Source: Eledone cirrhosa (taxonomy: Eukaryota). From it: a DNA stretch of 64,000 nucleotides. The stretch covers positions 192,696,001-192,760,000 of the forward strand of contig OZ024743.1 in the NCBI GenBank assembly GCA_964016885.1. Reading direction: 5' to 3'. Positions within the stretch are counted from its first letter, which is position 1. Each line of letters begins with the position of its first letter. Under the pieces are notes generated by a model that saw only the letters and a program-made list of their open reading frames with translations, made no database searches and was not told where the DNA came from. Shown piece by piece: positions 7,021-64,000 of the stretch. The translations under genes were made by a program, and so were the position numbers.

Positions 7021-7075
<55 letters not shown>
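6508..7075. repeat. Long (TA)n/(TACA) microsatellite
   Basis: About 570 bp of TA with CA interruptions. Confidence 0.97.
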
Positions 7076-7077
<2 letters not shown>

Positions 7078-7184
7078 AACAAGTATGACCCCGACGGCAG
7101 AGTCCAAGCCGTTTCGACGGGCTAATTCTGGAATTAACGTCGAAACGGCTTGAGCTCTGTCGTCGGGGTCATACTTGTTCCTAT
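7073..7184. repeat. Inverted repeat with 47-bp arms; inverted duplication of a hammerhead 3' half
   Basis: Arms 7073-7119 and 7138-7184 differ at 3 positions. The right arm reads CGTC-GAAA-CGG-CTTGAGCT-CTG-TC. Confidence 0.9.
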
Positions 7185-7313
7185 TACCCACTCTACTGCC
7201 CTAAGTATTGAGTACTTTGGTGCGTTATGGTCCATCTGGTTCCTTACACCATTTCATCGTTATATATATATATATATTTCGTTCTGAAATTTGACCCTCC
7301 CAAAGTATAACAA

Positions 7314-23083: not shown

Positions 23084-23298
23084 TTTCTTTATTTACCATA
23101 AAGGCATAAAAAGAAGGGACAAATACAAAGGGGGAGTTTACATATAATCGAGTAAAAAGGGTGTAACATGAAAATAATCGAAAATAACCTCAAAAGGGAG
23201 GGGACGTGATGGGGGTTGCACACACCCCCGAAAAAGTGTGCAATCCTTTGCCCGGGGAGCACATGGAGAAGGTGCTCCCCTCTCCTTTACTTCTTTAC

Positions 23299-26200
23299 CT
23301 ACAGGATGGTATACAGAGAAGGCCCATTTACACGAGCCATTCTCGCCACTATCACCCACCTTTCATAAAACTGCCTGTGGCCAAGCACCTCTCTCTCCAT
23401 TCTTATCCTTCTTCCGAAGTGATATCGGAAGAAGTAGACCAGACTATGGCCAGAGAGGAAGTTGCCTGACCTCAGACCTTTCAATCGTGTCCACCAAACA
23501 ACCTCTTTCAACATGGCTATTACGCACAGAAAAACCGCCTTTGCTTCCTTTGTGAAGAGGGGAGGCGGTTTGATTGTCATCACGGACTCGGCGGTCAATT
23601 TAATCGGCGCCACCCGCGACAGCAGTTGTTCGGCGTAGCCCCACAGATCAGCCACGCCAGGACATTGCACCAATGCGTGCGCCACGGTTTCTTCGTGACG
23701 CACGCATCTAGGGCAAATCTTTTTTGAGGGATCCCTGCCCGGGCGCCCGTGTCTGTAGAGCCTCTCTCGAACGGGTAGAGCCCCCCGGTAGCACTGCCAG
23801 GCCAGTGACTTCTGGAAGTTGTCCATTGGTCCTGGGCCGAAAGTCCTACCGAACAGGCTGGCCAGTTCGTCTTCTTCCATGTCCAGCGACTCTCCAAGGG
23901 TGTCATCGCCCCTGCTAGCCACCAGCCCTCTATAGAATGATGAGGTGGATTCTCCACCGATGGCCCGGCCCGCTTGCCAGAGAGCCCTGAGCGCCTGAGC
24001 ACACTCAGTGTGCCAGTCTCCCAGTTTTCCGGATCTTTGCTTGACCCAGGACTGTAGCTCGGTGAGTGAGACGAGTCTCGGAAAGGCTCGTTTCACGAAC
24101 GGAGCCCACACCGGTTGACCAGTGAGGAATACCTGTAGGTGTCGTAGCCTTAATGCGTGCCTACGCATCATCAACCACGGCATCCCCAGCCCTCCTTTCG
24201 AAGGTTGTTGGCAGCAGATGGATCTTCTCACCATAGGAGGACGCTTCTTCCAAAGAAATTGGAAGAGCATGCGTTCCATGGTGGTGAGTGTTTCCTTAGG
24301 GCAAGGCACGACAGTCAGGCGGTAGTAAGTGACGGACGCTATGTAAATGTTCGCCACCTCCGCCCGGCCTTTTAGGGACAGCTTACACTTGGCCCATTTC
24401 TGGGTTAGTGCAAACACCTTGTTCGTAACCTCGTTCCAGTTCTTTTCCACCTGGAGGTCCGGTCCAAACCAGACCCCAAGCAACTTTACCGGGCCCTCCG
24501 TCCAGTGTCCGACGACACCGTCAGGAGGCATCGGTTTGCCTCTCCACGTTCCGAGTTGCAGCCCGATGGATTTTTCCCGGTTCAGTTTCGCTCCTGACAA
24601 CCTTTCGTACTCCTCCAGTAAGGTACCGATCGCCTCGATCTCCGAGTCGGTTGATACCATTACTGTTACGTCATCGGCGTAGGCCGACACCGCTTTGCTC
24701 AATCCTGGTTCCAGGGGGATACCCTGCAACAACTCCAACTTCCTCAGTAAAGGCTCGAGAGTCAATACGTACAGAAGGGAGGAGAGAGGGCACCCCTGTC
24801 GAATGGATCGTGTGATTTCGAACGGCTTCGAAAGGTAGCCGTTCACCTTGATCCTAGAACAGATGTGGTTGCTATGTAGGGCAGTGATCCAGCCTCTGAA
24901 AACAGGACCGAACCCAGCCGCCGCTAGCACCGCATCCAGGTAACCATGGTCGACCCTATCGAAGGCCTTAGACTGATCCAAGTTGATCAGGGCCCCACCG
25001 AAGCCGGGTTTGTTGCCAACCCTCTCTATGATGTATCGCATGAGGTGGAGGTTATCGTGAATGGACCTGGATGGGATAGCACATGTCTGCGCATCTCCCA
25101 CCAGGCCACCCACGACAAGCGCCAACCTCTTTGCTAACACCTTGGCCAAAATCTTTAACTCTGTGTTTAGCAGGGTTATGGGCCGAAAATTATTTATACT
25201 ATCCCCCTTGTTCTCGTCCTTCCTCACCAGCGTGACTACGCCCTTGGCTACAGAACAAGGAATTCTCCCGTTCTGCTGCCAATTGCAGTAGACCGCTTCG
25301 AGGAGTTCGGAGAAGAAGACCGGCATTGCTAAATAAAGTTCGTAAGGTATACCATCGAGACCTGGAGATTTGCGTCTGCTGCATTGGCTCAGCGCATCTC
25401 CGATCTCATCAGCCGAGATTGGTCCCTCGCAGGACTCTGCCTCTTTGTTCGAGAGACGCGGCAGGCCGTCGAGGTATGGACCGAAATCCACGCCCCGGCC
25501 CGGACCCTCGCCTCCCCCGAACAATCGGGCAAAGTGCTTTTGAAAGGCCTCGCACATCTGCTTAGGCTCCCGGATCACTCGTCCATCTTCGTCTTGCAAC
25601 GACCGGATGGTGGATCGATTTCCACTTTTAGCTTCTGTCACGCGGGCCCATCCAACGGCTTTGGCCCCCTCATTACCTAGAGCACGTATTTTACTTCGAA
25701 TGACGCAGCCTTCATGCTTTGCATCGAAAAACTGGTTCAAGGCCGTCCTCGATGCCAGCACTCTGGCCACATCTTCGCTCTTGATTGCCTCTTCTAATTT
25801 ACCTGTTAATTCTTTCTCGTTTCTATTCCTATTGGCAGCTAACATCTTGCTATAACTTATTGATTCTGTTCTAATCTCTCTTTTGAGAGATGCCCACCAT
25901 CGGTTGTTGACGATTGCACCCGTCAACCTCTCCTTAACTAATCTGCTAATCCGGTTTCTGTAAGTCTCTTTTGCCGGTAAAGACAAATTAAGTTTCCAGT
26001 AACCGGGACCCTGCCTATGTGTTTTCTCGAGATTGACCACGCAGGTCACTAATTTGTGATCCGTGTAGCCAACCGTGCGCATTTCTGGACAGCTTAATAT
26101 GTCCCTATCCTTACTTCTAACTAAGAATCTATCTAAGTACGATCTAGATTGACCACTGTGGTTTCTCCAAGTCCAGGTAGGCACAGTTGGAAAATCTAGT

Positions 26201-26736
26201 CGATATCTATCGACCAAGTTAAAACGGTCGAGTAACCCCTTGAGGCTGTTACGCCCCCCTCTATTAGGACATGCTCCTGCATAGTCCCAACGTGCATCCA
26301 GGATGTCATTCCAATCCCCCGCTAGAAGCAGGGAACGCGACGTTCCCAGAAAAGTCTCCAAACGCTGGAAGAAGTCGGGCCGTTCAGCTCCGAAAGGGGA
26401 GTAGACGGCGACCAGTCTCAAGGCCGCACTTTCACTACTGCCAACGTCTAGCACCAACAAACGACCCTCCGGGTCCGAGTGCACAACCTGTACGGCAAGA
26501 CCCAGGTGTTTTTGCAGCAGCACGACAACCCCACCCCCACCTCCAGGTTGACAGAGAGATGCATGAACCTCAAAGTCATCGAAGGTGGGGGCCAGCTGCC
26601 GCATGACGCTGATTCGAGTCTCACAGATAACCATTACATTTATACTACATGACCTGAGGTCATTTAGAAGCTTTGCTTGCTTCCAAGTTGAGCCCAGGCC
26701 ACGTGCATTCAAACATCCTACTCTTAACACATCCAT
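23299..26736 (-). CDS. LINE ORF2: APE endonuclease, reverse transcriptase, C-terminal zinc finger (1145 aa, uninterrupted)
   Basis: LNARGL, ICET, GDWN, SYLDRFLV, TDH; KSPGLDG, FRPITLLN, DQSKAFDRV, IRQGCPLS, AYADD, LLGVWF; CPRC..ETVAHALVQC. Confidence 0.96.
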   Translation of the reverse strand: MDVLRVGCLNARGLGSTWKQAKLLNDLRSCSINVMVICETRISVMRQLAPTFDDFEVHASLCQPGGGGGVVVLLQKHLGLAVQVVHSDPEGRLLVLDVGSSESAALRLVAVYSPFGAERPDFFQRLETFLGTSRSLLLAGDWNDILDARWDYAGACPNRGGRNSLKGLLDRFNLVDRYRLDFPTVPTWTWRNHSGQSRSYLDRFLVRSKDRDILSCPEMRTVGYTDHKLVTCVVNLEKTHRQGPGYWKLNLSLPAKETYRNRISRLVKERLTGAIVNNRWWASLKREIRTESISYSKMLAANRNRNEKELTGKLEEAIKSEDVARVLASRTALNQFFDAKHEGCVIRSKIRALGNEGAKAVGWARVTEAKSGNRSTIRSLQDEDGRVIREPKQMCEAFQKHFARLFGGGEGPGRGVDFGPYLDGLPRLSNKEAESCEGPISADEIGDALSQCSRRKSPGLDGIPYELYLAMPVFFSELLEAVYCNWQQNGRIPCSVAKGVVTLVRKDENKGDSINNFRPITLLNTELKILAKVLAKRLALVVGGLVGDAQTCAIPSRSIHDNLHLMRYIIERVGNKPGFGGALINLDQSKAFDRVDHGYLDAVLAAAGFGPVFRGWITALHSNHICSRIKVNGYLSKPFEITRSIRQGCPLSSLLYVLTLEPLLRKLELLQGIPLEPGLSKAVSAYADDVTVMVSTDSEIEAIGTLLEEYERLSGAKLNREKSIGLQLGTWRGKPMPPDGVVGHWTEGPVKLLGVWFGPDLQVEKNWNEVTNKVFALTQKWAKCKLSLKGRAEVANIYIASVTYYRLTVVPCPKETLTTMERMLFQFLWKKRPPMVRRSICCQQPSKGGLGMPWLMMRRHALRLRHLQVFLTGQPVWAPFVKRAFPRLVSLTELQSWVKQRSGKLGDWHTECAQALRALWQAGRAIGGESTSSFYRGLVASRGDDTLGESLDMEEDELASLFGRTFGPGPMDNFQKSLAWQCYRGALPVRERLYRHGRPGRDPSKKICPRCVRHEETVAHALVQCPGVADLWGYAEQLLSRVAPIKLTAESVMTIKPPPLFTKEAKAVFLCVIAMLKEVVWWTRLKGLRSGNFLSGHSLVYFFRYHFGRRIRMEREVLGHRQFYERWVIVARMARVNGPSLYTIL

Positions 26737-26769
26737 GTGGGCGGCAGAGCCAAAGGAGAGTGTAGAGAC

Positions 26770-28671
26770 CTACCTTTCCGCTTCCCGGGGTTCGGGTTGC
26801 ACGACTTCCATGGGGTCGGGGGTGTTGGGTGAAGGGGTGTCTTGTGGTGGTGTGGGGTCGTCAGTGTGTGGTGGGGTTGGGGTGTTTGGAGTTGTGTTGG
26901 GGAGGGGAAGGGGAGGGGGAAAGCTTTTTAGTAGGACGCGGTTTATGGGTTTGACAGAGGGTGGTCCTACGTCCTCCTTAAAATCCTTTTTTAGTTTTTG
27001 GTAGAGGTTCATTGGGATTTTTATTAGTTTTAAATGTGGGTGGTTTTCTGACGAAACAAAGTTTACACCTTCGGTTTGTACCGAAGGATTATTGTATATG
27101 AGTTCATTTAATTTATTATTGTTTCTGTTGATGTAAGTATAGTGTAATGTCTTTTTTTCCGATGGTGTGAGTGTTTCGAAGAGGGGAGGGGCAGGTTTGG
27201 TTTTGTTTGTTGCTGGAGGGGTGTTTTCTGTTTTGTTAGATTGTGTTGCGATTTGGGTGGGGGTTGTTTGTCCTTGTGTGTTTTGCACATGTTTTCTTTT
27301 TTTCCTTTTAATCTGTCTGAAGGACTCCGTTTCTTCCTCCGAATTCGTTGGGTTATCTTCAGTGTTGGAGGGAAGAGGTATATTTGCTGGTAATGTTTCC
27401 GTGTTGGTTTTCTTTGTGGGGGAGATGGATGTCACTATGTTAGACTGTGTTGTGTGTTGTGTCTGCGGTGGTTGTGTTGTTTTATTGAGTGAGAGGTTGG
27501 GTGGGCCTGTATTTTGTTTTGGGGTAATGTGTTGTGACTGTTTGTGTTGTGGTGGTGTTGTGGTGTTACTGAGGGGCGGGTTGGGTGGGACTGAGTTTTG
27601 TTGTTTGTTTATCTGTTGTGGTGGTGGTGGTGGAGCTGGTGTTGGTAGCAGGGTTTTCTTTTTGTTGAGTTGGGGACAAGCGGCCTTCAGGTGCCCTCTG
27701 CCTGCACAGATATGGCAGGACGGCCTTCTCCCCTCCACGCTAATGTTTATATACCCGTGGTCCTCTAATAGGATTCTGTCGGGTATTTGGGCGATGCGTT
27801 CAGGCTTCATTTGTACTACCAGCTCTATACCTGTTCCACTGAACGCATTGCCTGTGGTTTTCCCAATGGAAATCACGTTGTCATTCACTGGATCGATGAA
27901 GCCAGCTATGAGCCAGCAGTAGTCCACATCTGGCATCATTGCATCCAGCCATATGCGTTGAGTTTTTTTTCCCATATAAGATGGATAAAAGGTGAAATTT
28001 TTCGAACGAATCGGTGACAAAGCACATTTTTTTGCCGCCGATTCGTTCTTCATGATAATTGCTAGGCTTCCATACAGTCTGTCTTTTCTTATGAAAGTTG
28101 TTTCATTCAGTACTTCTGTGAGTACTGTTTTGATATCTGCTTGAGAAGGCTGTTCAGGTTTTTTTGTACTGTTGTTGATGGTCCGAAACTTGACCGTTCG
28201 GCTTTCAATGTCTTTCGTGAATTCTTGAGGCATTTTTACCAATAAAATACCATTCTCACCTTCACTTATGTATTGTTTTGCGTCCGTGATCCTTCGTACC
28301 ACATCTGAAATGTTTTCCGCTATATAAGTCAAAGATTTCTTTGTTTTCTGTGCAAATGAAATCTTGTCGTCTGCTTTGTTTTCTGATATGATGTTATTTT
28401 CAACTGTTATTTTTTTGTTTGTTGTGTCTTTGTTTGTGTTATTAGTATTGTCATGCAATTTTTCAAATTTTTTTTTTTCGTTGTTGGAATCCAAGTCCAG
28501 ATTTATGTTTTCGTCATTTAATTTTTTCTCCGCAGATTCGTCCGTTTTTATTTTCATTTTTCCTTCCTTCTCTATGACGTTAGTTGGGAAGGAAGGGAGG
28601 ACTAAAGCGTGCGAGCTTACAACTCTTACCGCTGTCCCCCCACCACTATTTTCGTTCGCTGCGTTTAACAT
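26770..28671 (-). CDS. LINE ORF1: nucleic-acid-binding protein with CCHC knuckle (633 aa, uninterrupted)
   Basis: CHICAGRGHLKAAC zinc knuckle, Pro/Gln/Thr-rich tail, KRKKRK basic patch; lies directly upstream of ORF2. Confidence 0.88.
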   Translation of the reverse strand: MLNAANENSGGGTAVRVVSSHALVLPSFPTNVIEKEGKMKIKTDESAEKKLNDENINLDLDSNNEKKKFEKLHDNTNNTNKDTTNKKITVENNIISENKADDKISFAQKTKKSLTYIAENISDVVRRITDAKQYISEGENGILLVKMPQEFTKDIESRTVKFRTINNSTKKPEQPSQADIKTVLTEVLNETTFIRKDRLYGSLAIIMKNESAAKKCALSPIRSKNFTFYPSYMGKKTQRIWLDAMMPDVDYCWLIAGFIDPVNDNVISIGKTTGNAFSGTGIELVVQMKPERIAQIPDRILLEDHGYINISVEGRRPSCHICAGRGHLKAACPQLNKKKTLLPTPAPPPPPQQINKQQNSVPPNPPLSNTTTPPQHKQSQHITPKQNTGPPNLSLNKTTQPPQTQHTTQSNIVTSISPTKKTNTETLPANIPLPSNTEDNPTNSEEETESFRQIKRKKRKHVQNTQGQTTPTQIATQSNKTENTPPATNKTKPAPPLFETLTPSEKKTLHYTYINRNNNKLNELIYNNPSVQTEGVNFVSSENHPHLKLIKIPMNLYQKLKKDFKEDVGPPSVKPINRVLLKSFPPPLPLPNTTPNTPTPPHTDDPTPPQDTPSPNTPDPMEVVQPEPREAER

Positions 28672-28900
28672 TTCTGTTAGACGATTGAAATTTTTTACAC
28701 AAAATTTTTTAAAACAGGTTTTTCACCTCTAGGAGGGGTAAAGATGAGCTGACCCACCGCCTGACAGTTCAGACGGAGGGTCAAGCTACACAATTGTATC
28801 AAAATTAAGTTTGAACTCACAAAATTTCCTCAATAAATTTGAACAAAACTTCTGTGCGAAGTGAATGACATCCACACTGTAGAACAGACGACAGCTAGCT

Positions 28901-39412: not shown

Positions 39413-42400
39413 TCGGTCCAAACTGAAGGGCCAAACTTTATAACTGCTGTGGGACTACCTCATTTAAAAATGATAAAAGTCCCAATGCACTTGTACAAAA
39501 CACTGAAAATAAATTTCACGGAGGACGTGCCCCCCCCCCCCCCCCCTGCGCCAAACCAATCAACCGCGTCCTCCTAAAAAATTTCACACACACACACACA
39601 CACCCACCCAGACACCCACTCAACCACAAACACGCCAACCCCACAACACACCGATGCCCCTTCACTTCCACAAACCACCACCCCACCCAACAACCCATCC
39701 CCAACCAGCATGGAAATTGAGCGGCCCGTTTCCCGGGACGCAGAGAGGTAAGTGCCTTTTCTCTTTACCACCAACATGGCTGTGCTAAGAGTAGGGTGTC
39801 TAAATGCGCGTGGCCTGGGCTCGTCTTGGAAGCAAGCAATGCTTCTAAATGACCTCAGGTCACGATCTATAAATGTGATGGTTATCTGCGAGGCCCGGAT
39901 CAGCAGCATGCGACAGCTATCCCCCACCTTTGACGACTTTGAGATGCACGCATCTCTCTGTCAGCCCGGGGGTGGGGGTGGGGTTGTCGTTCTGCTGCAA
40001 AAACATATGGGCCTTGCAACACAGATAGTTCACTTGGACCCAGGGGGTCGACTGGTGGTGCTGGACCTTGGCAGTGGTGAAGGTAGAGCCTTTAGGCTGA
40101 TAGCCGCATATGCCCCTTTTGGGACAGAGCGGCCCGACTTTTTCCAGCGTCTGGAGTCTTTTCTAGGGACGTCCCGTTCCCTGCTTTTAGTGGGGGATTG
40201 GAATGGTATCCTGGATGCACGTTGGGACTATGCAGGGGCATGTCCCGATAGAGAGGGGTGCAACAGCCTCAAGGGGTTACTCGGCCGATTTGACCTGGCC
40301 GATAGATTTCGACTAGATTTTCCGACGGTGCCAACCTGGTCTTGGTCAAATCGCAGCGGATCATCTAGATCGTACCTAGATAGATTTTTAGTTAGAAATA
40401 AGGACAGGGACTTTTTAAGTTGTCCAGAAATGCTCATGGTTGGCTATTCAGACCACAAGTTGGTGACCTGCATGGTCAACCTTGATGGAACGCATAGACA
40501 GGGCCCCGGTTACTGGAAGCTCAACTTGTCCTTGCCGGCAAGTAGAGCCTACAGGAATCGGATTAGTACGTTAGTTAAGGAACGGTTGACTGGAGCGATC
40601 GTCAACAGCAGGTGGTGAGTATCTCTAAAGAGAGAGATTAGAGTAGTCTCGATAGAATTTAGTAAGGTTCTAGCTGCGGATAGGAATAGGAAGGAAAGGG
40701 AGCTAATAGATAGAGTAGAAGAGGCAATTAGAAGCGGCGACGTGGCCAGAGTGCTAGCGTCGAGAACGGCTTTGAGCCAGTTTTTCGACGCGAAGCACGA
40801 AGGCTGCGTTGTCCGAAGTAAAATACGTGCTCTAGGGAGCGAGGGGACCAAAGCTGTTAGCTGGGCCCGCGTGACAGAGGCCAACAGTGGAACTAAATCC
40901 ACCATCCGGTCTTTGCGAGACCTGGATGGACGGGCGATTCTTGAACCTAAGCAGATGTGTGAGGCCTTTCAAAGGCACTTTGCCCGACTGTTCGGGAGGG
41001 GCGGGGAGCCGGTTGGGAACGTGGACTTCGGTCCATACCTCGACGGCCTGCCGCGCCTCTCGGACAGGGAGGCGAAGTCCTGCGAGGAGCCGATTTCGGC
41101 CGCTGAGATAGAGGACGTGCTGAGCCAATGCGGCAAACGCAAATCCCCGGGTCTCGATGGTCTTCCTTACGAATTATATCTAGCTATGCCGGACTTGTTC
41201 CCCGATCTCCTCGAGGCGGTCTACTGCAACTGGCAACAGAACGGGAGAATTCCCTGTACTGTGACCAAGGGCGTAGTCACGCTAGTGAGGAAGGACGAGA
41301 ACAAGGGGGACGAAATAAGTAACTTCAGGCCCATAACTCTGCTAAATACAGAGTTACAGATTTTGGCCAAGGTGCTAGCAAAGAGGTTGGCGCTTGTCGT
41401 GGGCAACCTGGTGGGAGATGCGCAGACATGCGCTATCCCGTCCAGGTCCATCCATGACAACCTCCACCTCATGCGATACATCATAGAGAGGGTTGGGAAC
41501 GAACCCGGCTTTGGTGGGGCTCTGATCAACTTGGATCAATCTAAGGCGTTCGATAGGGTCGACCCTGGTTACCTGGATGCGGTGCTAGCGGCGGCAGGCT
41601 TCGGACCCGTTTTCAGGGGCTGGATCACTGCTATGCACAGCAGCCGCATCTGCTCTAGGGTCAAGGTGAACGGCTACCTCTCGGAGCCGTTCAAAATCGC
41701 GCGGTCCATCCGACAAGGGTGCCCTCTCTCCTCCCTTCTGTATGTGTTGACTCTCGAGCCACTACTGCGGAAGTTGGAGTTGTTGCAGGGCATCCCTTTG
41801 GAACTGGGATTGCGGAAAGCGGTGTCGGCCTACGCCGATGACGTGACAGTAATGGTGTCGACGGCCTCCGAAATCGAGGCGGTCGGCACCTTACTGGAGG
41901 AGTACGAAAAGTTCACAGGGGCTAAGCTGAACCGGGACAAGTCGATCGGTTTGCAACTCGGCACGTGGAGGGGCAGACCGATGCCCTCCGATGGCGTCGT
42001 CGGACGCTGGACGGAGGGCCCGGTGAAGTTGCTCGGGGTCTGGTTCGGACCGGACCTCCAGGTGGAGAAAAACTGGGCGGAGGTTACGAACAGGGTGTTT
42101 GCACTGACCCAGAAGTGGGCCAGTTGCAAACTATCCCTGAAAGGTCGAGCGGAGGTGGCGAACACCTACATAGCGTCCGTCATCTACTACCGCCTGACCG
42201 TAGTGCCCTGCCCAAGGGAAACCCTCACCAAGATGGAGCGCGCGCTCTTCCAATTCCTTTGGAAGAGGCGGGCTCCTATGGTGAGGAGATCCATCTGCTG
42301 TCAACACCCTTCGAAAGGAGGGCTGGGGATGCCGTGGCTAATGATGCGTAAACACGCATTAAGGCTACGGCACCTCTACGTATTCCTCACCGGAGAACCG

Positions 42401-42773
42401 GTGTGGGCCTCGTTTGTGAGACGAACCTTTCCCAGACTCGTCTCACTCACCGAGCTGCAATCCTGGGTCAAGCAAAGACCGAGAAAACTGAGTGTGCTCC
42501 TGAGGAAAAGGGTTGCACACTTTTTTCGGGGGTGTGTGCGACCCCCCAAGGCGCCTCCTCTCTATTGAGGATTTTGTTATAAATTTTATTTTTTGTTATA
42601 TTTTATAACAAAATCCTCTATTGAGGATTTTGTTATAATTCTATTTTTTGTTATATTTTATTTTATTTTTATATATTGTTATTGCCTCCTCCCTATTGAG
42701 GACGCCTTGTTTTGTAAACTCCCCCCATTGTACTTGTCCCACTTTTGATGCCCTTGTGGCAAATAAAAGAAAC
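39413..42773 (+). mobile_element. Tx1-like LINE subfamily B, 5'-truncated within ORF1 and internally rearranged
   Basis: Starts just after (TATC)n at about 39375-39408. ORF1 tail, then ORF2 from ATG 39776; jumps to the 3' UTR at about 42491; ends AATAAAAGAAAC then (TCTA)n. Confidence 0.9.
39776..42490 (+). pseudogene. ORF2 (APE plus RT) with a premature stop
   Basis: Colinear with 23299-26736; TGG>TGA at 40616-40618; YADD intact. Confidence 0.9.
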
Positions 42774-42819
42774 ACATCTATCTATCTATCTACCTACCCA
42801 TCTATCTATATATCTACCT

Positions 42820-43810
42820 AACTGGGCGCCTGGCACACTGAGTGTGCCCAGGCGCTCACCGCCCTCTGGCAGGAGGATCCGGTTATCAGTGGAGACTCCA
42901 CCGCAACATTCTATAGAGGGCTGGTACGCAGCAGGTGCGACGATACCCTCGGAGAAGCCCTAGACATGGAGGAGGACGAACTGGCCGGCCTGTTCGGTAG
43001 GACATTCAGCCCGGGACCTATGGACAACTTCCAGAAGTCCCTGGCCTGGCAGTGCTACCGAGGAGCCTTACCCGTTCGAGAAAGGCTCTACAGACACGGG
43101 CGCCCGGGTAGGGACCCCGCCAAAAAGATCTGTCCCAGATGCGTGTGCGACGAGGAAACCGTTGCACACGCATTGGTACACTGCTCGGGCGTAGCCGATC
43201 TGTGGGGCTATGTCGAACAACTGCTGTCAAGGGTGGGACCGATCCGGTTGACCACCGAGTCTATTGTAATGATCAAGCCGCCTCCCCCCTTCAAAGATGA
43301 AGCAGAGGCGGTGTTTCTGTGCGTAATAGCCATGGCGAAAGAGGTTGTATGGTGGACGCGTCTGAAAGGACTGAGGTCAGGCACCTTTCTCTCTGGCCAA
43401 CAACTGGTCCGTTTCTTCCGATATCATTTCGGAAGAAGGATCAGGATGGAGAGAGAGGTGCTGCACCCCAGTCGTTTTTATGAAAGGTGGGTGAAAGTGG
43501 CGAGAATGGCCCGTGTGAATGGGCCTTCTCTTTACATGAGCCTGTAGGTGGAAAAGAGGAAGGAACGAGGGAGCACCCCCTCTCTGTGCTCCTGAGGAAA
43601 AGGGTTGCACACTTTTTTCGGGGGTGTGTGCGACCCCCCAAGGCGCCTCCTCTCTATTGAGGATTTTGTTATAAATTTTATTTTTTGTTATATCTTATTT
43701 TATTTTTATATTTTGTTATTGCCTCCTCCTTATTGAGGACGCCTTTTTGTGTAAACTCCCCCCATTGTACTTGTCCCACTTTTGATGCCCTAGTGGCAAA
43801 TAAAAGAAAC
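42820..43810 (+). mobile_element. Tx1-like subfamily B 3' segment
   Basis: Resumes ORF2 where the upstream copy broke off; has the C-terminal zinc finger, 3' UTR and (TCTA)n tail. Confidence 0.9.
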
Positions 43811-43837
43811 ATATCTATTTATCTATCTATCTATCTA

Positions 43838-43972
43838 CTAGCCCTCTATAGAATGTTGCGGTGGAGTCTCCACTGATAACCGGATCCGCCTGCCTGAGGG
43901 CGGTGAGCGCCTGGGCACACTCAGTGTGCCAGGCGCCCAGTTTTCTCGGTCTTTGCTTGACCCAGGATTGCA
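43838..43972 (-). mobile_element. Inverted Tx1-like ORF2 fragment
   Basis: Reverse complement of about 42456-42490 joined to about 42820-42922. Confidence 0.8.
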
Positions 43973-43994
43973 CTTTTCTATAGAGGATTGCACT

Positions 43995-44893
43995 ATTCTA
44001 TAGAGGGCTGGTACGCAGCAGGTGCGACGATGCCCTAGGAGAAGCCCTAGACATGGAGGAGGACGAACTGGCCAGCCTGTTCGGTAGGACATTCAGCCCG
44101 GGACCTATGGACAACTTCCAGAAGTCCCTGGCCTGGCAGTGCTACCGAGGGGCTTTACCCGTTCGAGAAAGGCTCTACAGACACGGGCGCCCGGGTAGGG
44201 ACCCCGCCAAAAAGATCTGTCACAGATGCGTGTGCGACGAGGAAACCGTTGCACACGCATTGGTACACTGCTCGGGCGTAGCCGATCTGTGGGGCTATGT
44301 CGAACAACTGCTGTCAAGGGTGGGACCGATCCGGCTGACCACCGAGTCTATTGTAATGATCAAGCCGCCTCCCCCCTTCAAAGATGAAGCAGAGGCGGTG
44401 TTTCTGTGCGTAATAGCCATGGCGAAAGAGGTTGTATGGTGGACGCGTCTGAAAGGACTGAGGTCAGGCACCTTTCTCTCTGGCCAACAACTGGTCCGTT
44501 TCTTCCGATATCATTTCGGAAGAAGGATCAGGATGGAGAGAGAGGTGCTGCACCCCAGTCGTTTTTATGAAAGGTGGGTGAAAGTGGCGAGAATGGCCCG
44601 TGTGAATGGGCCTTCTCTTTACATGAGCCTGTAGGTGGAAAAGAGGAAGGAACGAGGGAGCACCCCCTCTCTGTGCTCCTGAGGAAAAGGGTTGCACACT
44701 TTTTTCGGGGGTGTGTGCGACCCCCCAAGGCGCCTCTCTATTGAGGATTTTGTTATAATTCTATTTTTTGTTATATTTTATTTTATTTTTATATATTGTT
44801 ATTGCCTCCTCCCTATTGAGGACGCCTTGTTTTGTAAACTCCCCCCATTGTACTTGTCCCACTTTTGATGCCCTTGTGGCAAATAAAAGAAAC
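43995..44893 (+). mobile_element. Second Tx1-like subfamily B 3' segment
   Basis: Near-identical to 42908-43810; followed by (TCTA)n at 44895-44981. Confidence 0.9.
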
Positions 44894-44894
44894 A

Positions 44895-44940
<46 letters not shown>

Positions 44941-44981
44941 CATTCCAACCTATCTATCTATCTATCTATCTATCTACCTAT

Positions 44982-45530
44982 CTGCTGTCGCGGGTGGCGC
45001 CGATTCGATTGACCGCCGAGTCCGTGATGACAATCAAGCCGCCTCCCCTCTTCACAAAGGAAGCAAAGGCGGTTTTTCTGTGCGTAATAGCCATGTTGAA
45101 AGAGGTTGTTTGGTGGACACGATTGAAAGGTCTGAGGTCAGGCAACTTCCTCTCTGGCCATAGTCTGGTCTACTTCTTCCGATATCACTTCGGAAGAAGG
45201 ATAAGAATGGAGAGAGAGGTGCTTGGCCACAGGCAGTTTTATGAAAGGTGGGTGATAGTGGCGAGAATGGCTCGTGTAAATGGGCCTTCTCTGTATACCA
45301 TCCTGTAGGTAAAGAAGTGAAGGAGAGGGGAGCACCTTCTCCATGTGCTCCCCGGGCAAAGGATTGCACACTTTTTCGGGGGTGTGTGCAACCCCCATCA
45401 CGTCCCCTCCCTTTTGAAGTTGTTTTTGATTATTTTCATTTTATACCCTTTTTACTCGGTTTTATGTAAACTCCCCCTTTGTATTTGTCCCTTCTTTTTA
45501 TGCCTTTATGGTAAATAAAGAAATCTATCT
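44982..45530 (+). mobile_element. Tx1-like subfamily A 5'-truncated copy
   Basis: Near-identical reverse complement of about 23084-23625. Begins in (TATC)n and ends AATAAAGAAATCTATCT. Confidence 0.92.
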
Positions 45531-53820: not shown

Positions 53821-55511
53821 TTTCTTTATTAGCCACAAGGGCGCACAAGAAAAGGGGACAATACAATACAAAGACATGCCAGGGATTTTACATACAGTCG
53901 TGTAAAAAATATAAAAACAAACAATTACAACAATCGAAATCCCCAATAGGGGGGAGGCGCCACAAATGGGTTGTTTAATACCCCGTCGATAGAACAACCC
54001 TCAACTTCAGGAGCTTGTTGTGCAAGTGCGCCTTTCTTCCTTTTGCTCTCTTCTTTAACCTACAGGTTTATAAACAGAGAAGGCCAAATCACTCGGGCCA
54101 TTTTCGCTTCATTCACCCACCTTTCAGTAAATTTATTGGGGTGCAGTGCCTCTCTCTCCACCCTGATTCTCCTTCTAAAGTGATACTTAAAGAAGGGAAT
54201 CAACTGTTGTCCGGAGAGAAAGGCATCTGTCCTCAGTCCTCTTAATCTCGTCCATCATATAACTTCTTTCACCATAGCCACCGTACAGAGGAAAACCGCC
54301 TCTCTTTCGTTTTTGAAAGAGGCTGGCGGTTTGATCCTTACTATGGACTCGAAAGTCAACTGGATTTGTCCCATACGCGACAGCAGTTGTTCTGCATAGT
54401 TCCACAGGTCGGTTATGCCCGGGCAGTGTACAATTGCGTGCAGGACTGTTTCAATGTCCTGCGCGCATCTTGGAAACGTCCTCTTGGAAGGATCCCTGCC
54501 GGGGCGTCCGTGCCTGTAGATCTTGTTACGAACCGGTAGAGCTCCTCGGTAGCACTGCCAGGCCAGGGACCTCTGAAAGTTGTCCATAGGTGCCGGGCGG
54601 AAAGTCCTACCAAACAGACTGGTGAGCTCATCGTCTTCGACGCCCAGAGTCTCTCCGAGCACGTCGTCGCCCTTGTAACATACAATCCCTCTATAGAATG
54701 TCGAAGTGGAGTCTCCACTGATTGCTGCGCCCGCTTGCCAGATGACTGTGAGCGCCTGAGCGCATTCAATGTGCCAGGCGCCCATCGTTTTCGGTCTTTT
54801 CTTGACCCAGGACTGCAGCTCCGTCAGCGAGACGAGCTGTGGGAAAGCCTGTCTCACAAACGGTGCCCACACCGGTTGGGGGTCGGTGAGGAATACCTGG
54901 AGATGCCGCAGCCTCAGTGCATGTTTGCGCATCATCAGCCACGGCATTCCCAGCCCTCCGTTGGAAGGGTGCTGACAGCAAACGGATCTCCTCACCAGTG
55001 GAGCCTGCTTCTTCCACAGAAACTGGAAGAGCATGCGTTCCATCTTGGCGAGGTGTTCACGGGGACAAGGAACGACAGTCAAGCGGTAGTAGATGACGGA
55101 CGCTATGAAAGTGTTCGCCACCTCCGATCGACCTTTCAAGGACAGTTTGCACTCTGCCCACTTCTGGGTGAGTGCAAAACCTTGGCCCTGACCTCGTTCC
55201 AGTTTTTCTCCACCTGGAGGTCTGGACCGAACCAGACCCCAAGCAATTTCACCGGTCCGTCCGTCCAGCGTCCAACGACGCTGTCGGACGTCATCGGTTT
55301 GCCTCTCCACGTGCCGAGTTGCAAACCGACAGACTTGTCCGGGTTTAGTTTTGCTCCCGTCAGCGTTTCGTATTCTTTCAGTAAGTTGCCGATCACCCCG
55401 ATTTCCGAGGTGCTCGACACCATTACCGTCACGTTGTCGGCATAAGCCGACGCCGCTTTGCGCAGTCTCGGTTCTAGAGGGATGCCCTGCAACAGCTCCA
55501 ATTTCCGCAGT
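53821..55511 (-). mobile_element. Tx1-like subfamily C, 5'-truncated and frameshifted
   Basis: ORF2 homology from LRKMELLQGIP to the C-terminus; 3' end AATAAAGAAA. Flanks are TAGATATA and TAGATAGATATA. Confidence 0.9.
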
Positions 55512-55542
55512 AGATAGATATAACTTTATTATTACAAAAATT

Positions 55543-55690
55543 ACTTCTACAGAACTAGAACTGTTCCATTTGCGAATGAAACAATTCTAGTCCTGTAGAA
55601 GTCATTTCTATAATACAGTAGAATAAGATACCTATACCCTAGTAATGTATTGAGTACCTTTTTTAACGGTGGTCACCTCCCGCTGTACAT
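55543..55690 (+). mobile_element. Hammerhead-family element with fold-back palindrome (55543-55602)
   Basis: ACTTCTACAGAACTAGAACTGTTCCATT / AATGAAACAATTCTAGTCCTGTAGAAGT, then GTATTGAGTACC. Reverse-strand relative of 55873-56000 and 63816-63944. Confidence 0.72.
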
Positions 55691-55806
55691 TCCGAATTCA
55701 AGGCCCAGAGCCCATCACCCTCACCCTTTCCCCTCCCATCCTTCTGTGACCCCCCGTTTTGAAATATTTGTAGTGATTTGTGTAAATAGAAATTCTTGTA
55801 AGTAAA

Positions 55807-55872
<66 letters not shown>

Positions 55873-56000
55873 ATCCCGGATTCAATTGGGGTTAACCACA
55901 GTAAGTAAGGTACTCAATACATAACAGAGTATATACAATATTTAATATAGAAATGGCTTCTAAAGGACTAGAACTGTTTCATTCGAAGGAAATTATCAGG
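55873..56000 (-). mobile_element. Hammerhead-family element ending in (CA)n, core decayed
   Basis: CTGATAA-TTTCCTTCGAAT-GAAA-CAG.. at 55955-55999; homologous to 63816-63944; abuts (GT)n at 55808-55871. Confidence 0.72.
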
Positions 56001-59289: not shown

Positions 59290-62064
59290 AGGCGCTGCTC
59301 GTGGTGAAAGTTTTCGTGAGGGGAAAGCCACAGCGAGCCCTCGTGGACACGGGCTGTACTACGACACTGGTGACCGCGGGGGTGGCGCAGAGGTGGAGAG
59401 GGAAGAGCAGCGTAAGGGCAGTCGACGGTAGGAAAATTGAATGCCGAGGTCGCAGCGAGGTGGAGATGGCGGTACGGGGAAAGAAAATAAGGCTTTCTGC
59501 ATCGTAGTCGACAACGTGGTGGATGGGATCGGCGTAGTTATGGGCATTGGCCGTCTAGGAGGCTTCACAGTGAACAACGTCACTGTGTCGTTTGGCGGCG
59601 CCGCATCGGTATGCGCTGTGAGTACGCGACAGGAGAATCAGAAGGCCCGCGAGGAGAAATATCCCGCTTACACTGTACAGGAGAAAGACTTCAAGGAGGT
59701 GTTCGATGGGCAACGATGGGTTGTTGAGTGGTACTGGAAGGGAGAACCACCAACACTGGAGACCAAAGTGAGCTGCTATCAACACACATTGAAGGGAGAC
59801 ATTAGGAGCGAGTTCGAGCGAGAGGTAGAGAGATGGATTGAGGAGGGCATACTGCTTCCCTGGAAAGAGGATGTGAAGTGCGGAGTATTGCCGTTAATGG
59901 CGGTGGCGCAACCAACGAAGAATAAAGTGAGGCCGGTACTGGACTTTCGGGAGCTGAACGAGCACGTGTCATGCCACACGGGTGGCGAGGTCACGGATGT
60001 CTGTGGAGAAACCCTGCGTGAGTGGAGACGCGTGACGGGGGCTTCCGCAATCGTCGATCTAAAGTCGGCATACTTACAATTACACATAGATGAGAAGCTC
60101 TGGCAGTATCAGCTGGTCAGGTATAAGGGCCGGACATATTGCCTGACCAGGCTCGGTTTCGGGCTGAGCTCTGCACCGAAGATCATGGCGGTCCTCAAGA
60201 CCATTCTGGGAAAGGCCGACAAGATGAAGAGGACCACTAATTCCTACATTGACGACATCCTAGTGGACGAGTCTGTAGTGTCGGCGGCGGAGGTCACGAA
60301 CCATTTACAGGGGTATGGACTGGCTGCGAAGCCGTCAGAAGCGTTGGAGGGGGGAGCCGCGCTGGGACTTAGGCTACAGCGAGACAGGACGGGTGTGTTA
60401 GTATTCGAGAGGGGAAATGAAGTTCCAGAACTGGGCCCAAGTATGAGTAGGCGGGAGCTTTTCTCGGCGTGTGGAAAGTTGGTGGGTCACTACCCGATTG
60501 CTGGGTGGCTCCGGACGGCATGCAGCTATGTCAAGAGACGAGCGGGCGGGGTGACTTGGAGTGACAGAGTGGGAGAGAGGACGGTGGCAGTAGATCGTGG
60601 AGAGGGTGAAAGCCGACGACCCATTGCGGGGACGCTGGTATGTTCCCAAATCGCAGAGCGGGACCGTATGGTGCGATGCCAGCAGCATAGCGCTAGGTGT
60701 CACGTTGGAGATAGGAGATGTTGAGGTCGAGGATGCAGCCTGGCTTAGGAAGAAAGACGACTGCAACCACATCAATGTGGCCGAAATGGACGCGGTGTTG
60801 AGAGGGGTGAACCTCGCCCTGAGGTGGGGACTGCGCACCATCGAAATTCGCACCGACTCGGCTACTGTACTCGGATGGGTGAGATCAGTGCTCACCAGTG
60901 AGAAGAGAGTGCGAACGAGAGGGGCAGCGGAGATGCTGATAAAGCGCCGCCTGGGAACTTTAGGAGAGCTGGCTATCGAATTCGACCTGAGGCTGAGCGT
61001 AGTTTTCGTGCCCTCAGAGAAAAATAGGGCGGACGTTTTAACCAGGGTGAAGAAAGCCTGGATGGAAGCGCCGGAAGATGTAGAAGAGAAGATAGCTGCC
61101 GTGTGTCGGCTGACCGAGTCGGATCTGAAAAGGTTGCATGACATGCACCACATGGGAGTGGATAGGACTCTGTTCCTAGCCAGTTGAATCGACTCGGACG
61201 TTAACAGACACAGTGCTCAAAGAGTGGTTAGAAGCTGCGTCCGATGTCAGTCCATTGATCCCGCTCCGGGTGTGCACGAAACGGGAAGCCTCCCGGTGGA
61301 TCGCGATTGGCGGTGGATATAACACACTACCGACAAGGAACATACCTCTCAATGGTCGACTGTGGACCGGGACGGATGGCGATATGGAGGGAGATGAAGA
61401 CTGAAACGTCCGAGGAAATCACGCGGACGTTGAGAAAGGTGTTCTTGGAGCGGGGCCCTGTGGACGAACTGCTGATGGACAACAGCGCAGCGTTCCGCTC
61501 GGAGGCGCTGAGGGAGATGCTCGATGGATGGAAGGTGGACCGTTTCTTCAGAGCAGCGTACAGGCCGAGCGGAAATGGAATCGTGGAGCGAGACCACAGG
61601 ACGATCAAAGCAATGGCGGAGCGGGGCCACATCTCACCAATGGAGGCAGTGTTCTGGTACAACATGTCTCCTCAGGTGGGACAGGTTGAGGAATCGGTGC
61701 CACACAGAGAAGTATTCAGATACGAGTGGTGGCACCCGTGCACGCCACACAACGGCCAGTGGAGAGAGAGAATGCATTCGTGCAGGTGGGCGAAGAAGTC
61801 TGGGTTAAGCCCCCAGATGCACGTTGCACATCTCAATGGGGAAGGGGAACGGTGACGGCCGTAAATTCCCAGAACAATGTGTCCATGGACGGAGTACCAC
61901 ATCATGTCCTGGATGTCTGTAGAATCACTGTGTCAACGGACTCCGAGGAAGAGGAAACCCAAAGTGCCGCCCCAACACTGCGGAGATCGCAAAGAAGTCG
62001 CAAACCACCAACCTGGACAGCAGACTTTCATATGCAGCAGGACGAGGGGGAAATAGATCCTTGA
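59290..62064 (+). pseudogene. pol (protease, RT, RNase H, integrase), frameshifted
   Basis: ALVDTGC; RPVLDFRELN, DLKSAYLQ, LGFGL, YIDD; WCDAS, HINVAE, TDS; HDMHHMG, AVDIT, DNSAAF, SGNGIVER. Confidence 0.92.
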
Positions 62065-63791: not shown

Positions 63792-63892
63792 ATATATGTG
63801 TGTGTGTGTGTGTGTCCCGGGTTCAATCGGGAGTAACCATAGTAAGTAAGGTACTCAATACATAGCAGAGTATACATATTTAATATGGAAAT

Positions 63893-63944
63893 GGCTTCTA
63901 CAGGACTAGAACTGTTTCATTCGAAGGAAATCATCAGGAAAGCC
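63893..63944 (-). ncRNA. Type-I hammerhead ribozyme motif
   Basis: GGCTTTC-CTGATGA-T-TTC-CTTC-GAA-T-GAAA-CAG-TTCTAGTC-CTG-TA-GAAGCC. All three stems can form; GUA cleavage triplet. The element runs into (CA)n at about 63815. Confidence 0.82.
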
Positions 63945-64000
63945 GACTGCTAATGTGTAAATACCACCATCACACATTGACAGTCTGCTTTCCTGATTTC

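What the first reader, a model, noticed from the sequence alone, without database searches (positions are those of the whole stretch)
55543..55602. Second fold-back at hammerhead stem II, with the intact parent visible in the window
Seen: the palindrome's right arm GAAT-GAAA-CAATTCTAGTCCTG-TA-GAAG matches the 3' half of the complete HHR at 63893-63944. The symmetry centre (CATTTGCGAATG) falls at stem II. This independently repeats the geometry at 7073-7184 in a different sequence, supporting a recurrent mechanism rather than chance.
Basis: partly seen in the sequence, partly recalled or inferred. Interest (0 to 1): 0.72.

Follow-up and report, generated by a model that had tools for sequence, protein, structure and literature searches.

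The report
Head-to-head stub of Penelope-like retroelement
This DNA palindrome is real and is one of thousands of back-to-back stubs of a Penelope-like jumping gene; most such joints sit at the element's likely RNA start, and this one falls in the ribozyme's stem II loop only as a minority case, so stem II is likely not what causes the fold-back.

Summary
The palindrome is real (41-nt arms, 35 matching, 55530-55615) and its axis lies in hammerhead loop II. It is a 5'-inverted, truncated pLTR of a Penelope-like element (Hydra-type RT plus GIY-YIG in longer copies), a layout already published. The stem II claim fails as a rule. Genome-wide patterns give 4,521 fold-backs at the hammerhead's 5' edge, 401 for the stem II pattern (78 in register), 103 in stem III and 50 just upstream. 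In 53 sampled inversions, 37 centre at -8..+7 and 3 in stem II. The hotspot lies 30 nt after a TATA box, and 15 of 20 informative 5' ends carry an extra G, as from a cap. The 7073 family folds at its own predicted start site, which happens to lie inside its stem II loop. The 'intact parent' at 63816 is itself a fold-back, centred about 45 nt upstream of stem II, and belongs to another subfamily. Best reading: both cut DNA ends copy capped RNA to its start and the copies join head to head; this copy was shortened by about 20 nt. The scan found this reading before on other DNA (e1-10352193, e1-9821833).

The parts
55519..55572 (-). Inverted, tail-less arm: pLTR piece from about +15/+17 to about +60/+67 (numbering +1 = C3 of the hammerhead core)
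55571..55574 (.). Junction TGCG; axis between +14 and +15, in loop II, one base off the stem II axis
   Evidence: sequence; register compared
55573..55700 (+). Sense arm: 5'-truncated pLTR (subfamily D) lacking stem I 5' strand and CUGAUGA core, with GAAA (55578-55581), stem III, cleavage site (55597|55598), stem I 3' strand and the 3' tail
55616..55700 (+). 'Tail': part of the sense arm that has no counterpart in the inverted arm (approximate limits)
55876..56000 (-). Second family-1 copy (subfamily A), not inverted, 5' end at about -1, core reads CTGATAA
63816..63958 (-).
63952..64000 (+). Inverted arm of that same insertion, running past the window end; axis about 63965
   Evidence: L001
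7073..7255 (+). Family-2 head-to-head insertion: inverted arm 7073-7130, sense arm 7131-7255; junction 4-6 nt after the family's predicted start site
54050..55513 (-). Flanking LINE fragment (not part of the element), ending at the left edge of the insertion

Best explanation
The palindrome is a short head-to-head insertion of the pLTR of a Penelope-like element, likely made when both ends of a cut chromosome primed reverse transcription on the element's RNA and the two copies were joined at their ends. Steps: (1, shown) the family is a Penelope-like element with RT and C-terminal GIY-YIG endonuclease, and over half of sampled copies carry an inverted, tail-less arm. (2, inferred) a CCAAT/TATA promoter in the pLTR starts a capped RNA at the first base of hammerhead stem I. 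(3, inferred) one DNA end primes at the outer RT start (about +123), the other at the inner start (about +55 to +67); the difference is the tail. (4, inferred) both cDNAs run off at the cap, often gaining a C, and are joined by 0-5 bp of pairing or with a few added bases, giving the hotspot at -8..+7. (5, inferred) in this copy both cDNAs stopped or were trimmed about 20 nt short and joined in loop II through a GC/CG dinucleotide; a later C-to-T change gave TGCG. The insertion is a dead end: it has no promoter and lacks the 5' half of the ribozyme core.
For: Family identity: L183 and L192 hold RT (YRDD) and GIY-YIG frames upstream of the same pLTR, L183 as 3.9-kb head-to-head arms. Hotspot: centres 37 of 53 at -8..+7, 3 in stem II, 1 at -29..-9 (binomial p 5e-7 and 2e-13); patterns 4,521 / 401 / 103 / 50 with reversed-pattern controls 0. 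TATA at -35 to -37 in 10 of 13 long copies, CCAAT at -85 to -91 in 9 of 13. Family 2 piles up at its own initiator-like site about 30 nt after a TATA-like box, although there the site lies in loop II: 26 of 44 centres at -8..+10 of its numbering. Extra G before the predicted first base in 15 of 20 informative ends beside (TA)n (counted by eye) and 6 G against 3 A in family 2; PMC11702581 (passages) reads such a G in L1 insertions as the cap. Tail-less arm reaches at least 10 nt further 5' than the tail arm in 6 of 53 and 9 of 44, which simple snap-back cannot give. Both arms share the variable loop II in 18 of 23, chance 0.18. A Penelope-like protein cleaves and extends both strands and starts at two internal sites that bound the tail (PMC11167929, parts 1-2 of 4 read).
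Against: No RNA evidence: the start site and cap are inferred from DNA alone. TATA distance varies (-30 in L034, -39 in L080; none called in L100). The hotspot also coincides with the start of stem I in family 1, with an AG after a pyrimidine tract in subfamily B and family 2 (a possible splice acceptor), and with a similar distance from the RT start sites in both families (about 130 and 136 nt). The extra-G tally is small and by eye, and many junction Gs are ambiguous. Symmetric junctions fit snap-back equally well. For this copy the trimming step is not shown; the GC-pairing reading rests on a loop sequence seen in L141, 1 of the 29 relatives fetched. Of the 9 family-2 asymmetric rows, L199 is a miscall and L157 has another layout.
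Confidence: 0.75

Rival explanations
1. Stem II drives the fold-back: the cDNA copy of stem II forms a hairpin, primes on itself and copies back.
For: 78 junctions genome-wide are exactly in register with stem II, about three times the mean per spacer length in that pattern (401 over 17 lengths).
Against: 78 against 4,521 at the 5' edge; 3 of 53 centres in stem II; this copy has a 4-nt spacer where register needs 6; family-1 stem II is 3 bp closed by a U-U pair and is absent from the centroid fold; the 63816 copy folds upstream.
Confidence: 0.05
2. Snap-back self-priming at the end of one strand, wherever it stops (published form: self-priming on an antisense template, PMC3846280).
For: Gives the same final layout; 29 of 53 and 24 of 44 junctions show overlap between the arms; arms share one template.
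Against: Tail-less arm longer than the tail arm in 6 of 53 and 7-9 of 44 and in L183; an extra C/G on the tail-less arm or on both arms in L046 and L158; fixed outer end of the tail-less arm at +62 in 37 of 44 family-2 copies fits a second RT start.
Confidence: 0.12
3. Two primed cDNAs are joined as in the best explanation, but the stop is set by something other than a start site: a splice acceptor, the base of stem I, or a fixed copying length.
For: AG after a T-rich tract at -6/-5 in subfamily B and at the family-2 site; PMC4209133 (passages) maps the D. virilis Penelope intron end to the 5' end of helix I; both families give 130-136 nt stubs.
Against: No common upstream exon appears at junctions; subfamily A ends at -7 while its AG lies at -11/-10; family 2 stops inside loop II, not at stem I; the extra G is expected at a cap.
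Confidence: 0.07
4. Assembly or library chimera.
For: No read or contig spans this locus in 4 runs laid (one of them laid nothing).
Against: Arms differ at 6 of 41 positions; thousands of junctions with distinct spacers and flanks; opposite-strand joints at +1/-3 in raw reads of run X20 (6 reads, 2 starts) and in contigs of run X1.
Confidence: 0.01

Closest known systems
Complex insertions of EN+ Penelope-like elements: inverted 5'-truncated pLTR, tail on one end, palindrome at the junction (PMC8557442, PMC3846280; passages read)
   Same: Head-to-head inverted truncated copy at the 5' end, tail on one arm only, junction palindrome, TATA and Inr-like motifs in the pLTR, (TA)n targets.
   Different: Tail here is about 60-75 nt, not 30-40. 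The papers give no junction hotspot; PMC3846280 explains the palindromes by self-priming on an antisense template, whereas the extra G here points to capped sense RNA.
Hydra clade of Penelope-like elements (PMC8557442 section 11, read whole)
   Same: C-terminal GIY-YIG, CxCX5C linker, CxxC and CxH around the late E/N residues, hammerhead in pLTR, (TA)n insertion.
PAc Poseidon element in vitro (PMC11167929, parts 1-2 of 4 read)
   Same: Two internal RT starts bounding the tail, both strands cleaved and extended, uncleaved RNA as template, start about 111-118 nt after stem II begins (here about 115).
   Different: Another clade; the paper does not treat 5' junctions.
L1 twin priming and cap-derived G (PMC11702581, passages read)
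   Same: Second DNA end primes a second cDNA; cDNA ends joined by microhomology; extra G at full-length 5' ends.
   Different: In L1 the two pieces cover different parts of the RNA; here both copy the same stretch, which gives a palindrome.

Membership tests
EN+ Penelope-like element (family level) | RT and GIY-YIG endonuclease linked to the same pLTR | tested here: met
   L183, L181, L184, L187 (family 1) and L192 (family 2) hold such frames upstream of the pLTR. Pfam support is weak: GIY-YIG E 0.017-0.018, below cut-off, for L183; nothing for L192; no RT family hit. Linkage is shown for subfamilies B/B2, not for the finding's subfamily D.
EN+ Penelope-like element (family level) | Inverted 5'-truncated copy adjacent at the 5' end | tested here: met
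   53 of 89 family-1 and 44 of 58 family-2 copies
EN+ Penelope-like element (family level) | Tail on one end only | tested here: met
   Inverted arms end at +54..+67 (50 of 53) or +62 (37 of 44) while sense arms run to about +123 or +138
EN+ Penelope-like element (family level) | Hammerhead motif in the pLTR | tested here: met
   Core motifs present; stem I covaries across subfamilies (GGCTTTC/GAAGCC, AGATTC/GAATCT, AGCTTC/GAAGCT). No Rfam hammerhead hit; folding z near 0 for family 1.
EN+ Penelope-like element (family level) | Target-site duplication | tested here: inconclusive
   None evident at 55513-55521 / 55700; often hidden in microsatellite targets
EN+ Penelope-like element (family level) | Phylogenetic placement of RT with Penelope-like RTs | not tested
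   No tree built; no reference proteins held
Hydra clade | CxCX5C linker, no CCHH in the endonuclease, CxxC and CxH near the C terminus | tested here: met
   Read from the L183 and L192 frames against the definition; the L192 frame ends before the C-terminal motifs
Hydra clade | RWK and DKT motifs in the N-terminal region | not tested
   Fetched frames begin downstream of that region
Active type I hammerhead (this copy, 55573-55603) | CUGANGA core, stem I and stem II complete | tested here: not met
   The copy starts at about +14: no core 5' half, no stem I 5' strand
Active type I hammerhead (family copies) | Self-cleavage | not testable with these tools
   Needs in vitro transcription and cleavage assay
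   Axis one base off; 78 in-register against 4,521 at the 5' edge

The most novel reading that the evidence does not exclude
The mirror-image insertions of Penelope-like elements are made by twin target-primed reverse transcription of capped sense RNA from the two tail-bounding start sites, with head-to-head joining of the cDNA ends; the junction hotspot is a genome-wide fossil map of the pLTR start site. In family 2 the promoter sits inside the loop of hammerhead stem II, so RNA started there lacks half the ribozyme and only read-through RNA could cleave.
Probability: 0.6. Interest if true: 0.6.

Novelty: new member of a known kind. Interest (0 to 1): 0.38.

Why it matters
The palindrome itself is a dead, ordinary stub and an atypical one for its family. 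The family statistics matter more: PMC8557442 names the formation of tandem/inverted structures as an open point of Penelope-like transposition, and PMC3846280 proposes antisense self-priming. A sharp hotspot 30 nt after a TATA box with a cap-like extra G favours capped sense RNA and priming from both DNA ends, which the existing in vitro system (PMC11167929) could test directly. It also removes a tempting false lead, a ribozyme-primed fold-back.

Tried and rejected
Rfam found no hammerhead in the window; its 74 hits are microRNA-like matches to microsatellites and hairpins, all below gathering scores. The first 30 loci were chosen for a complete hammerhead and so biased; they were left out of the junction counts and used only as coordinate references and. 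The unbiased samples are the first 90 of 7,490 family-1 anchor matches and the first 58 of 16,378 family-2 matches, all on contig C1; L102 was dropped as a duplicate of L101, and inverted arms more than 40 nt from the sense arm were not counted as adjacent (1 in family 1, 5 in family 2). Searches were swamped by microsatellites and were replaced. None of 30 top GIY-YIG loci had a family pLTR in line within 1.5 kb; two held unrelated short family-2 stubs. Sequencing runs: no RNA holder listed. Run X17 laid no reads in either call (48, 52). Truncation at the ribozyme cleavage site is at most a small class (family 1: 12 of 89 sense ends at +20 or beyond, spread out), so cleavage was rejected as the cause of the hotspot. 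Whether the insertion interrupts the flanking LINE stayed open: only about 15 nt of weak likeness follow it. Pattern counts are exact-match lower bounds and not strictly comparable: the -16..-8 pattern covers two subfamily types only, the +1..+8 zone was not counted, and part of the 401 have one arm reaching the core. Paper searches found no report of a junction hotspot at a pLTR start site; most subscription journals are not in the library and no supplements were read, so the Hydra alignments and hammerhead files of PMC8557442 may bear on clade and novelty.

Full report
Numbering: +1 is C3 of the hammerhead core CTGATGA; there is no zero. In family 2, +20 is the G of GAAA and the initiator-like A is +2.

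1. Observation. 55543-55602 agrees with its reverse complement at 52 of 60 positions. The arms extend to 55530-55570 and 55575-55615, 35 of 41 matching. A scan for such palindromes found this site alone in the window and none in 10 simulated windows. The right arm is the 3' half of a type I hammerhead motif (GAAA 55578-55581, stem III, cleavage site 55597|55598, stem I 3' strand), followed by a 3' end shared with the family up to about 55700. The axis lies between +14 and +15, in loop II, one base off the axis of stem II (TTC +9..+11 with GAA +16..+18).

2. The 'parent'. The 63816 copy holds a whole hammerhead (63893-63944, - strand), but it is itself a head-to-head insertion with axis near 63965 and a second arm running out of the window. 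It is also another subfamily: four closer relatives score 141-153 against 84. The 55876-56000 copy is a plain truncated copy ending at about -1. So of three family copies in the window, one ends in loop II, one at the core edge and one upstream.

3. What the family is. A 33-base anchor 3' of the ribozyme has 7,490 exact matches in the 3.0-Gb genome; the 7073 family has 16,378. [quoted passage not shown] Pfam support is below cut-off, so identity rests on motifs and layout. The CxCX5C linker, missing CCHH and (TA)n targets fit the Hydra clade as defined in PMC8557442 (section read). Inverted 5'-truncated copies, a tail on one end and junction palindromes are published features (passages read).

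4. Where the junctions lie. In the first 90 anchor matches on C1 (89 after dropping one duplicate), 53 have an adjacent inverted arm. Centres: 7 at -30 or further, 1 at -29..-9, 37 at -8..+7, 3 in stem II, 5 at +20..+39. Only 1 of 53 has both arms ending in stem II. Exact genome-wide patterns: 4,521 at the 5' edge, 401 for the stem II pattern, 78 of them in register with stem II, 103 in stem III, 50 at -16..-8 for two subfamily types; reversed controls 0. The distribution has a sharp upstream edge and a downstream tail; this finding lies in the tail. Ends are uncertain by a few bases because of microhomology.

5. Why there. Long copies carry TATA at -35 to -37 (10 of 13) and CCAAT near -90 (9 of 13); a start about 30 nt after TATA (general promoter knowledge, recalled) falls at -7..-5, the first base of stem I. 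Family 2 separates the candidates. Its hammerhead has a long stem II whose loop holds a TATA-like box and a (T/C)AGT initiator-like site (the core reads TTGATAA or TTGAGAA in L166, L208, L214, matching the U3-A8 variant of PMC4209133, passages read). There 26 of 44 centres lie at -8..+10, and the 7073 junction is at +6/+8. What the two families share is the distance from TATA, not the ribozyme helix. Where a truncated copy abuts (TA)n, the base before the predicted first nucleotide is G in 15 of 20 informative cases among 64 loci listed (counted by eye: 9 of 12 subfamily B, 6 of 8 A types; p 4e-6 against a 25% background), and 6 G against 3 A in family 2. PMC11702581 (passages) reads such a G in L1 insertions as the mRNA cap.

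6. Mechanism. Shown: both arms come from one template type (loop II identical in 18 of 23, chance 0.18); the inverted arm has a fixed outer end (+62 in 37 of 44 family-2 copies; +54..+67 in 50 of 53 family-1 copies); either arm can be the longer at the junction (6 against 8 of 53; 9 against 6 of 44, with two doubtful rows). Inferred: both target ends prime cDNA from the two start sites that bound the tail, as a Poseidon protein does in vitro (PMC11167929, parts 1-2 of 4 read), both run to the cap, and the ends are joined. The commonest subfamily-B junction reads GAATC or GATTC in either orientation, as expected if two GAATC ends paired across one mismatch. Simple snap-back cannot make the tail-less arm longer. 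For this copy, both cDNAs were about 20 nt short and met in loop II off register; stem II pairing explains only the small in-register class.

7. Artefact. This locus was not bridged in the 4 runs laid. The class is seen in raw reads: depth falls at about -3 and opposite-strand joints map to +1/-3 (6 reads, 2 starts, run X20; contigs of X1). Diverged arms argue against a chimera.

8. Verdict. Observation confirmed; interpretation partly supported. A new member of a known kind of insertion, and a minority case within its family. The hotspot at a capped start site was not found in six paper searches (supplements not read), but this scan noted it before in this genome and another. It lacks RNA evidence. 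Interest 0.38.

Noticed in passing
L192:355-475 (-), L154, L155, L166; window 7131-7255: Family-2 hammerhead has a U3-A8-type core in some copies and a long stem II whose loop contains the TATA-like box and initiator-like site; RNA started there would lack the ribozyme's 5' half.
   Followed up: partly
L182:619-696: Reads and contigs show joints that go back 76-78 bases, i.e. head-to-tail tandem units of about 77 bp spanning the family-1 hammerhead (-19 to +59); possibly a retrozyme-like or dimer-forming array.
   Followed up: no
L181, L182, L183, L192: Multi-kilobase head-to-head insertions of the same families (L183 arms 3.9 kb, 97% alike), with kilobases of microsatellite between ORF end and pLTR.
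   Followed up: partly
window 23290-28722 (-), 39752-45530 (+), 54050-55513 (-): Several copies of one LINE family (endonuclease, RT and zf-RVT domains); the L1/Tx1-type label is recalled, not tested.
   Followed up: no
window 59441-61855 (+): Frames with DUF7047 and an integrase core (rve) domain; not examined.
   Followed up: no
G000, (L221-L250): 10,597 GIY-YIG candidates; most of the top 30 carry CxxC inside the endonuclease, so other Penelope-like clades are abundant beside these two families.
   Followed up: no
L152, L157, L109, L041: A few copies end at or next to the predicted ribozyme cleavage site, perhaps copies of cleaved RNA.
   Followed up: partly
L156, L162, L073, L138: Family-1 and family-2 stubs often sit side by side in the same (TA)n tract, in line with a shared target.
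   Followed up: no
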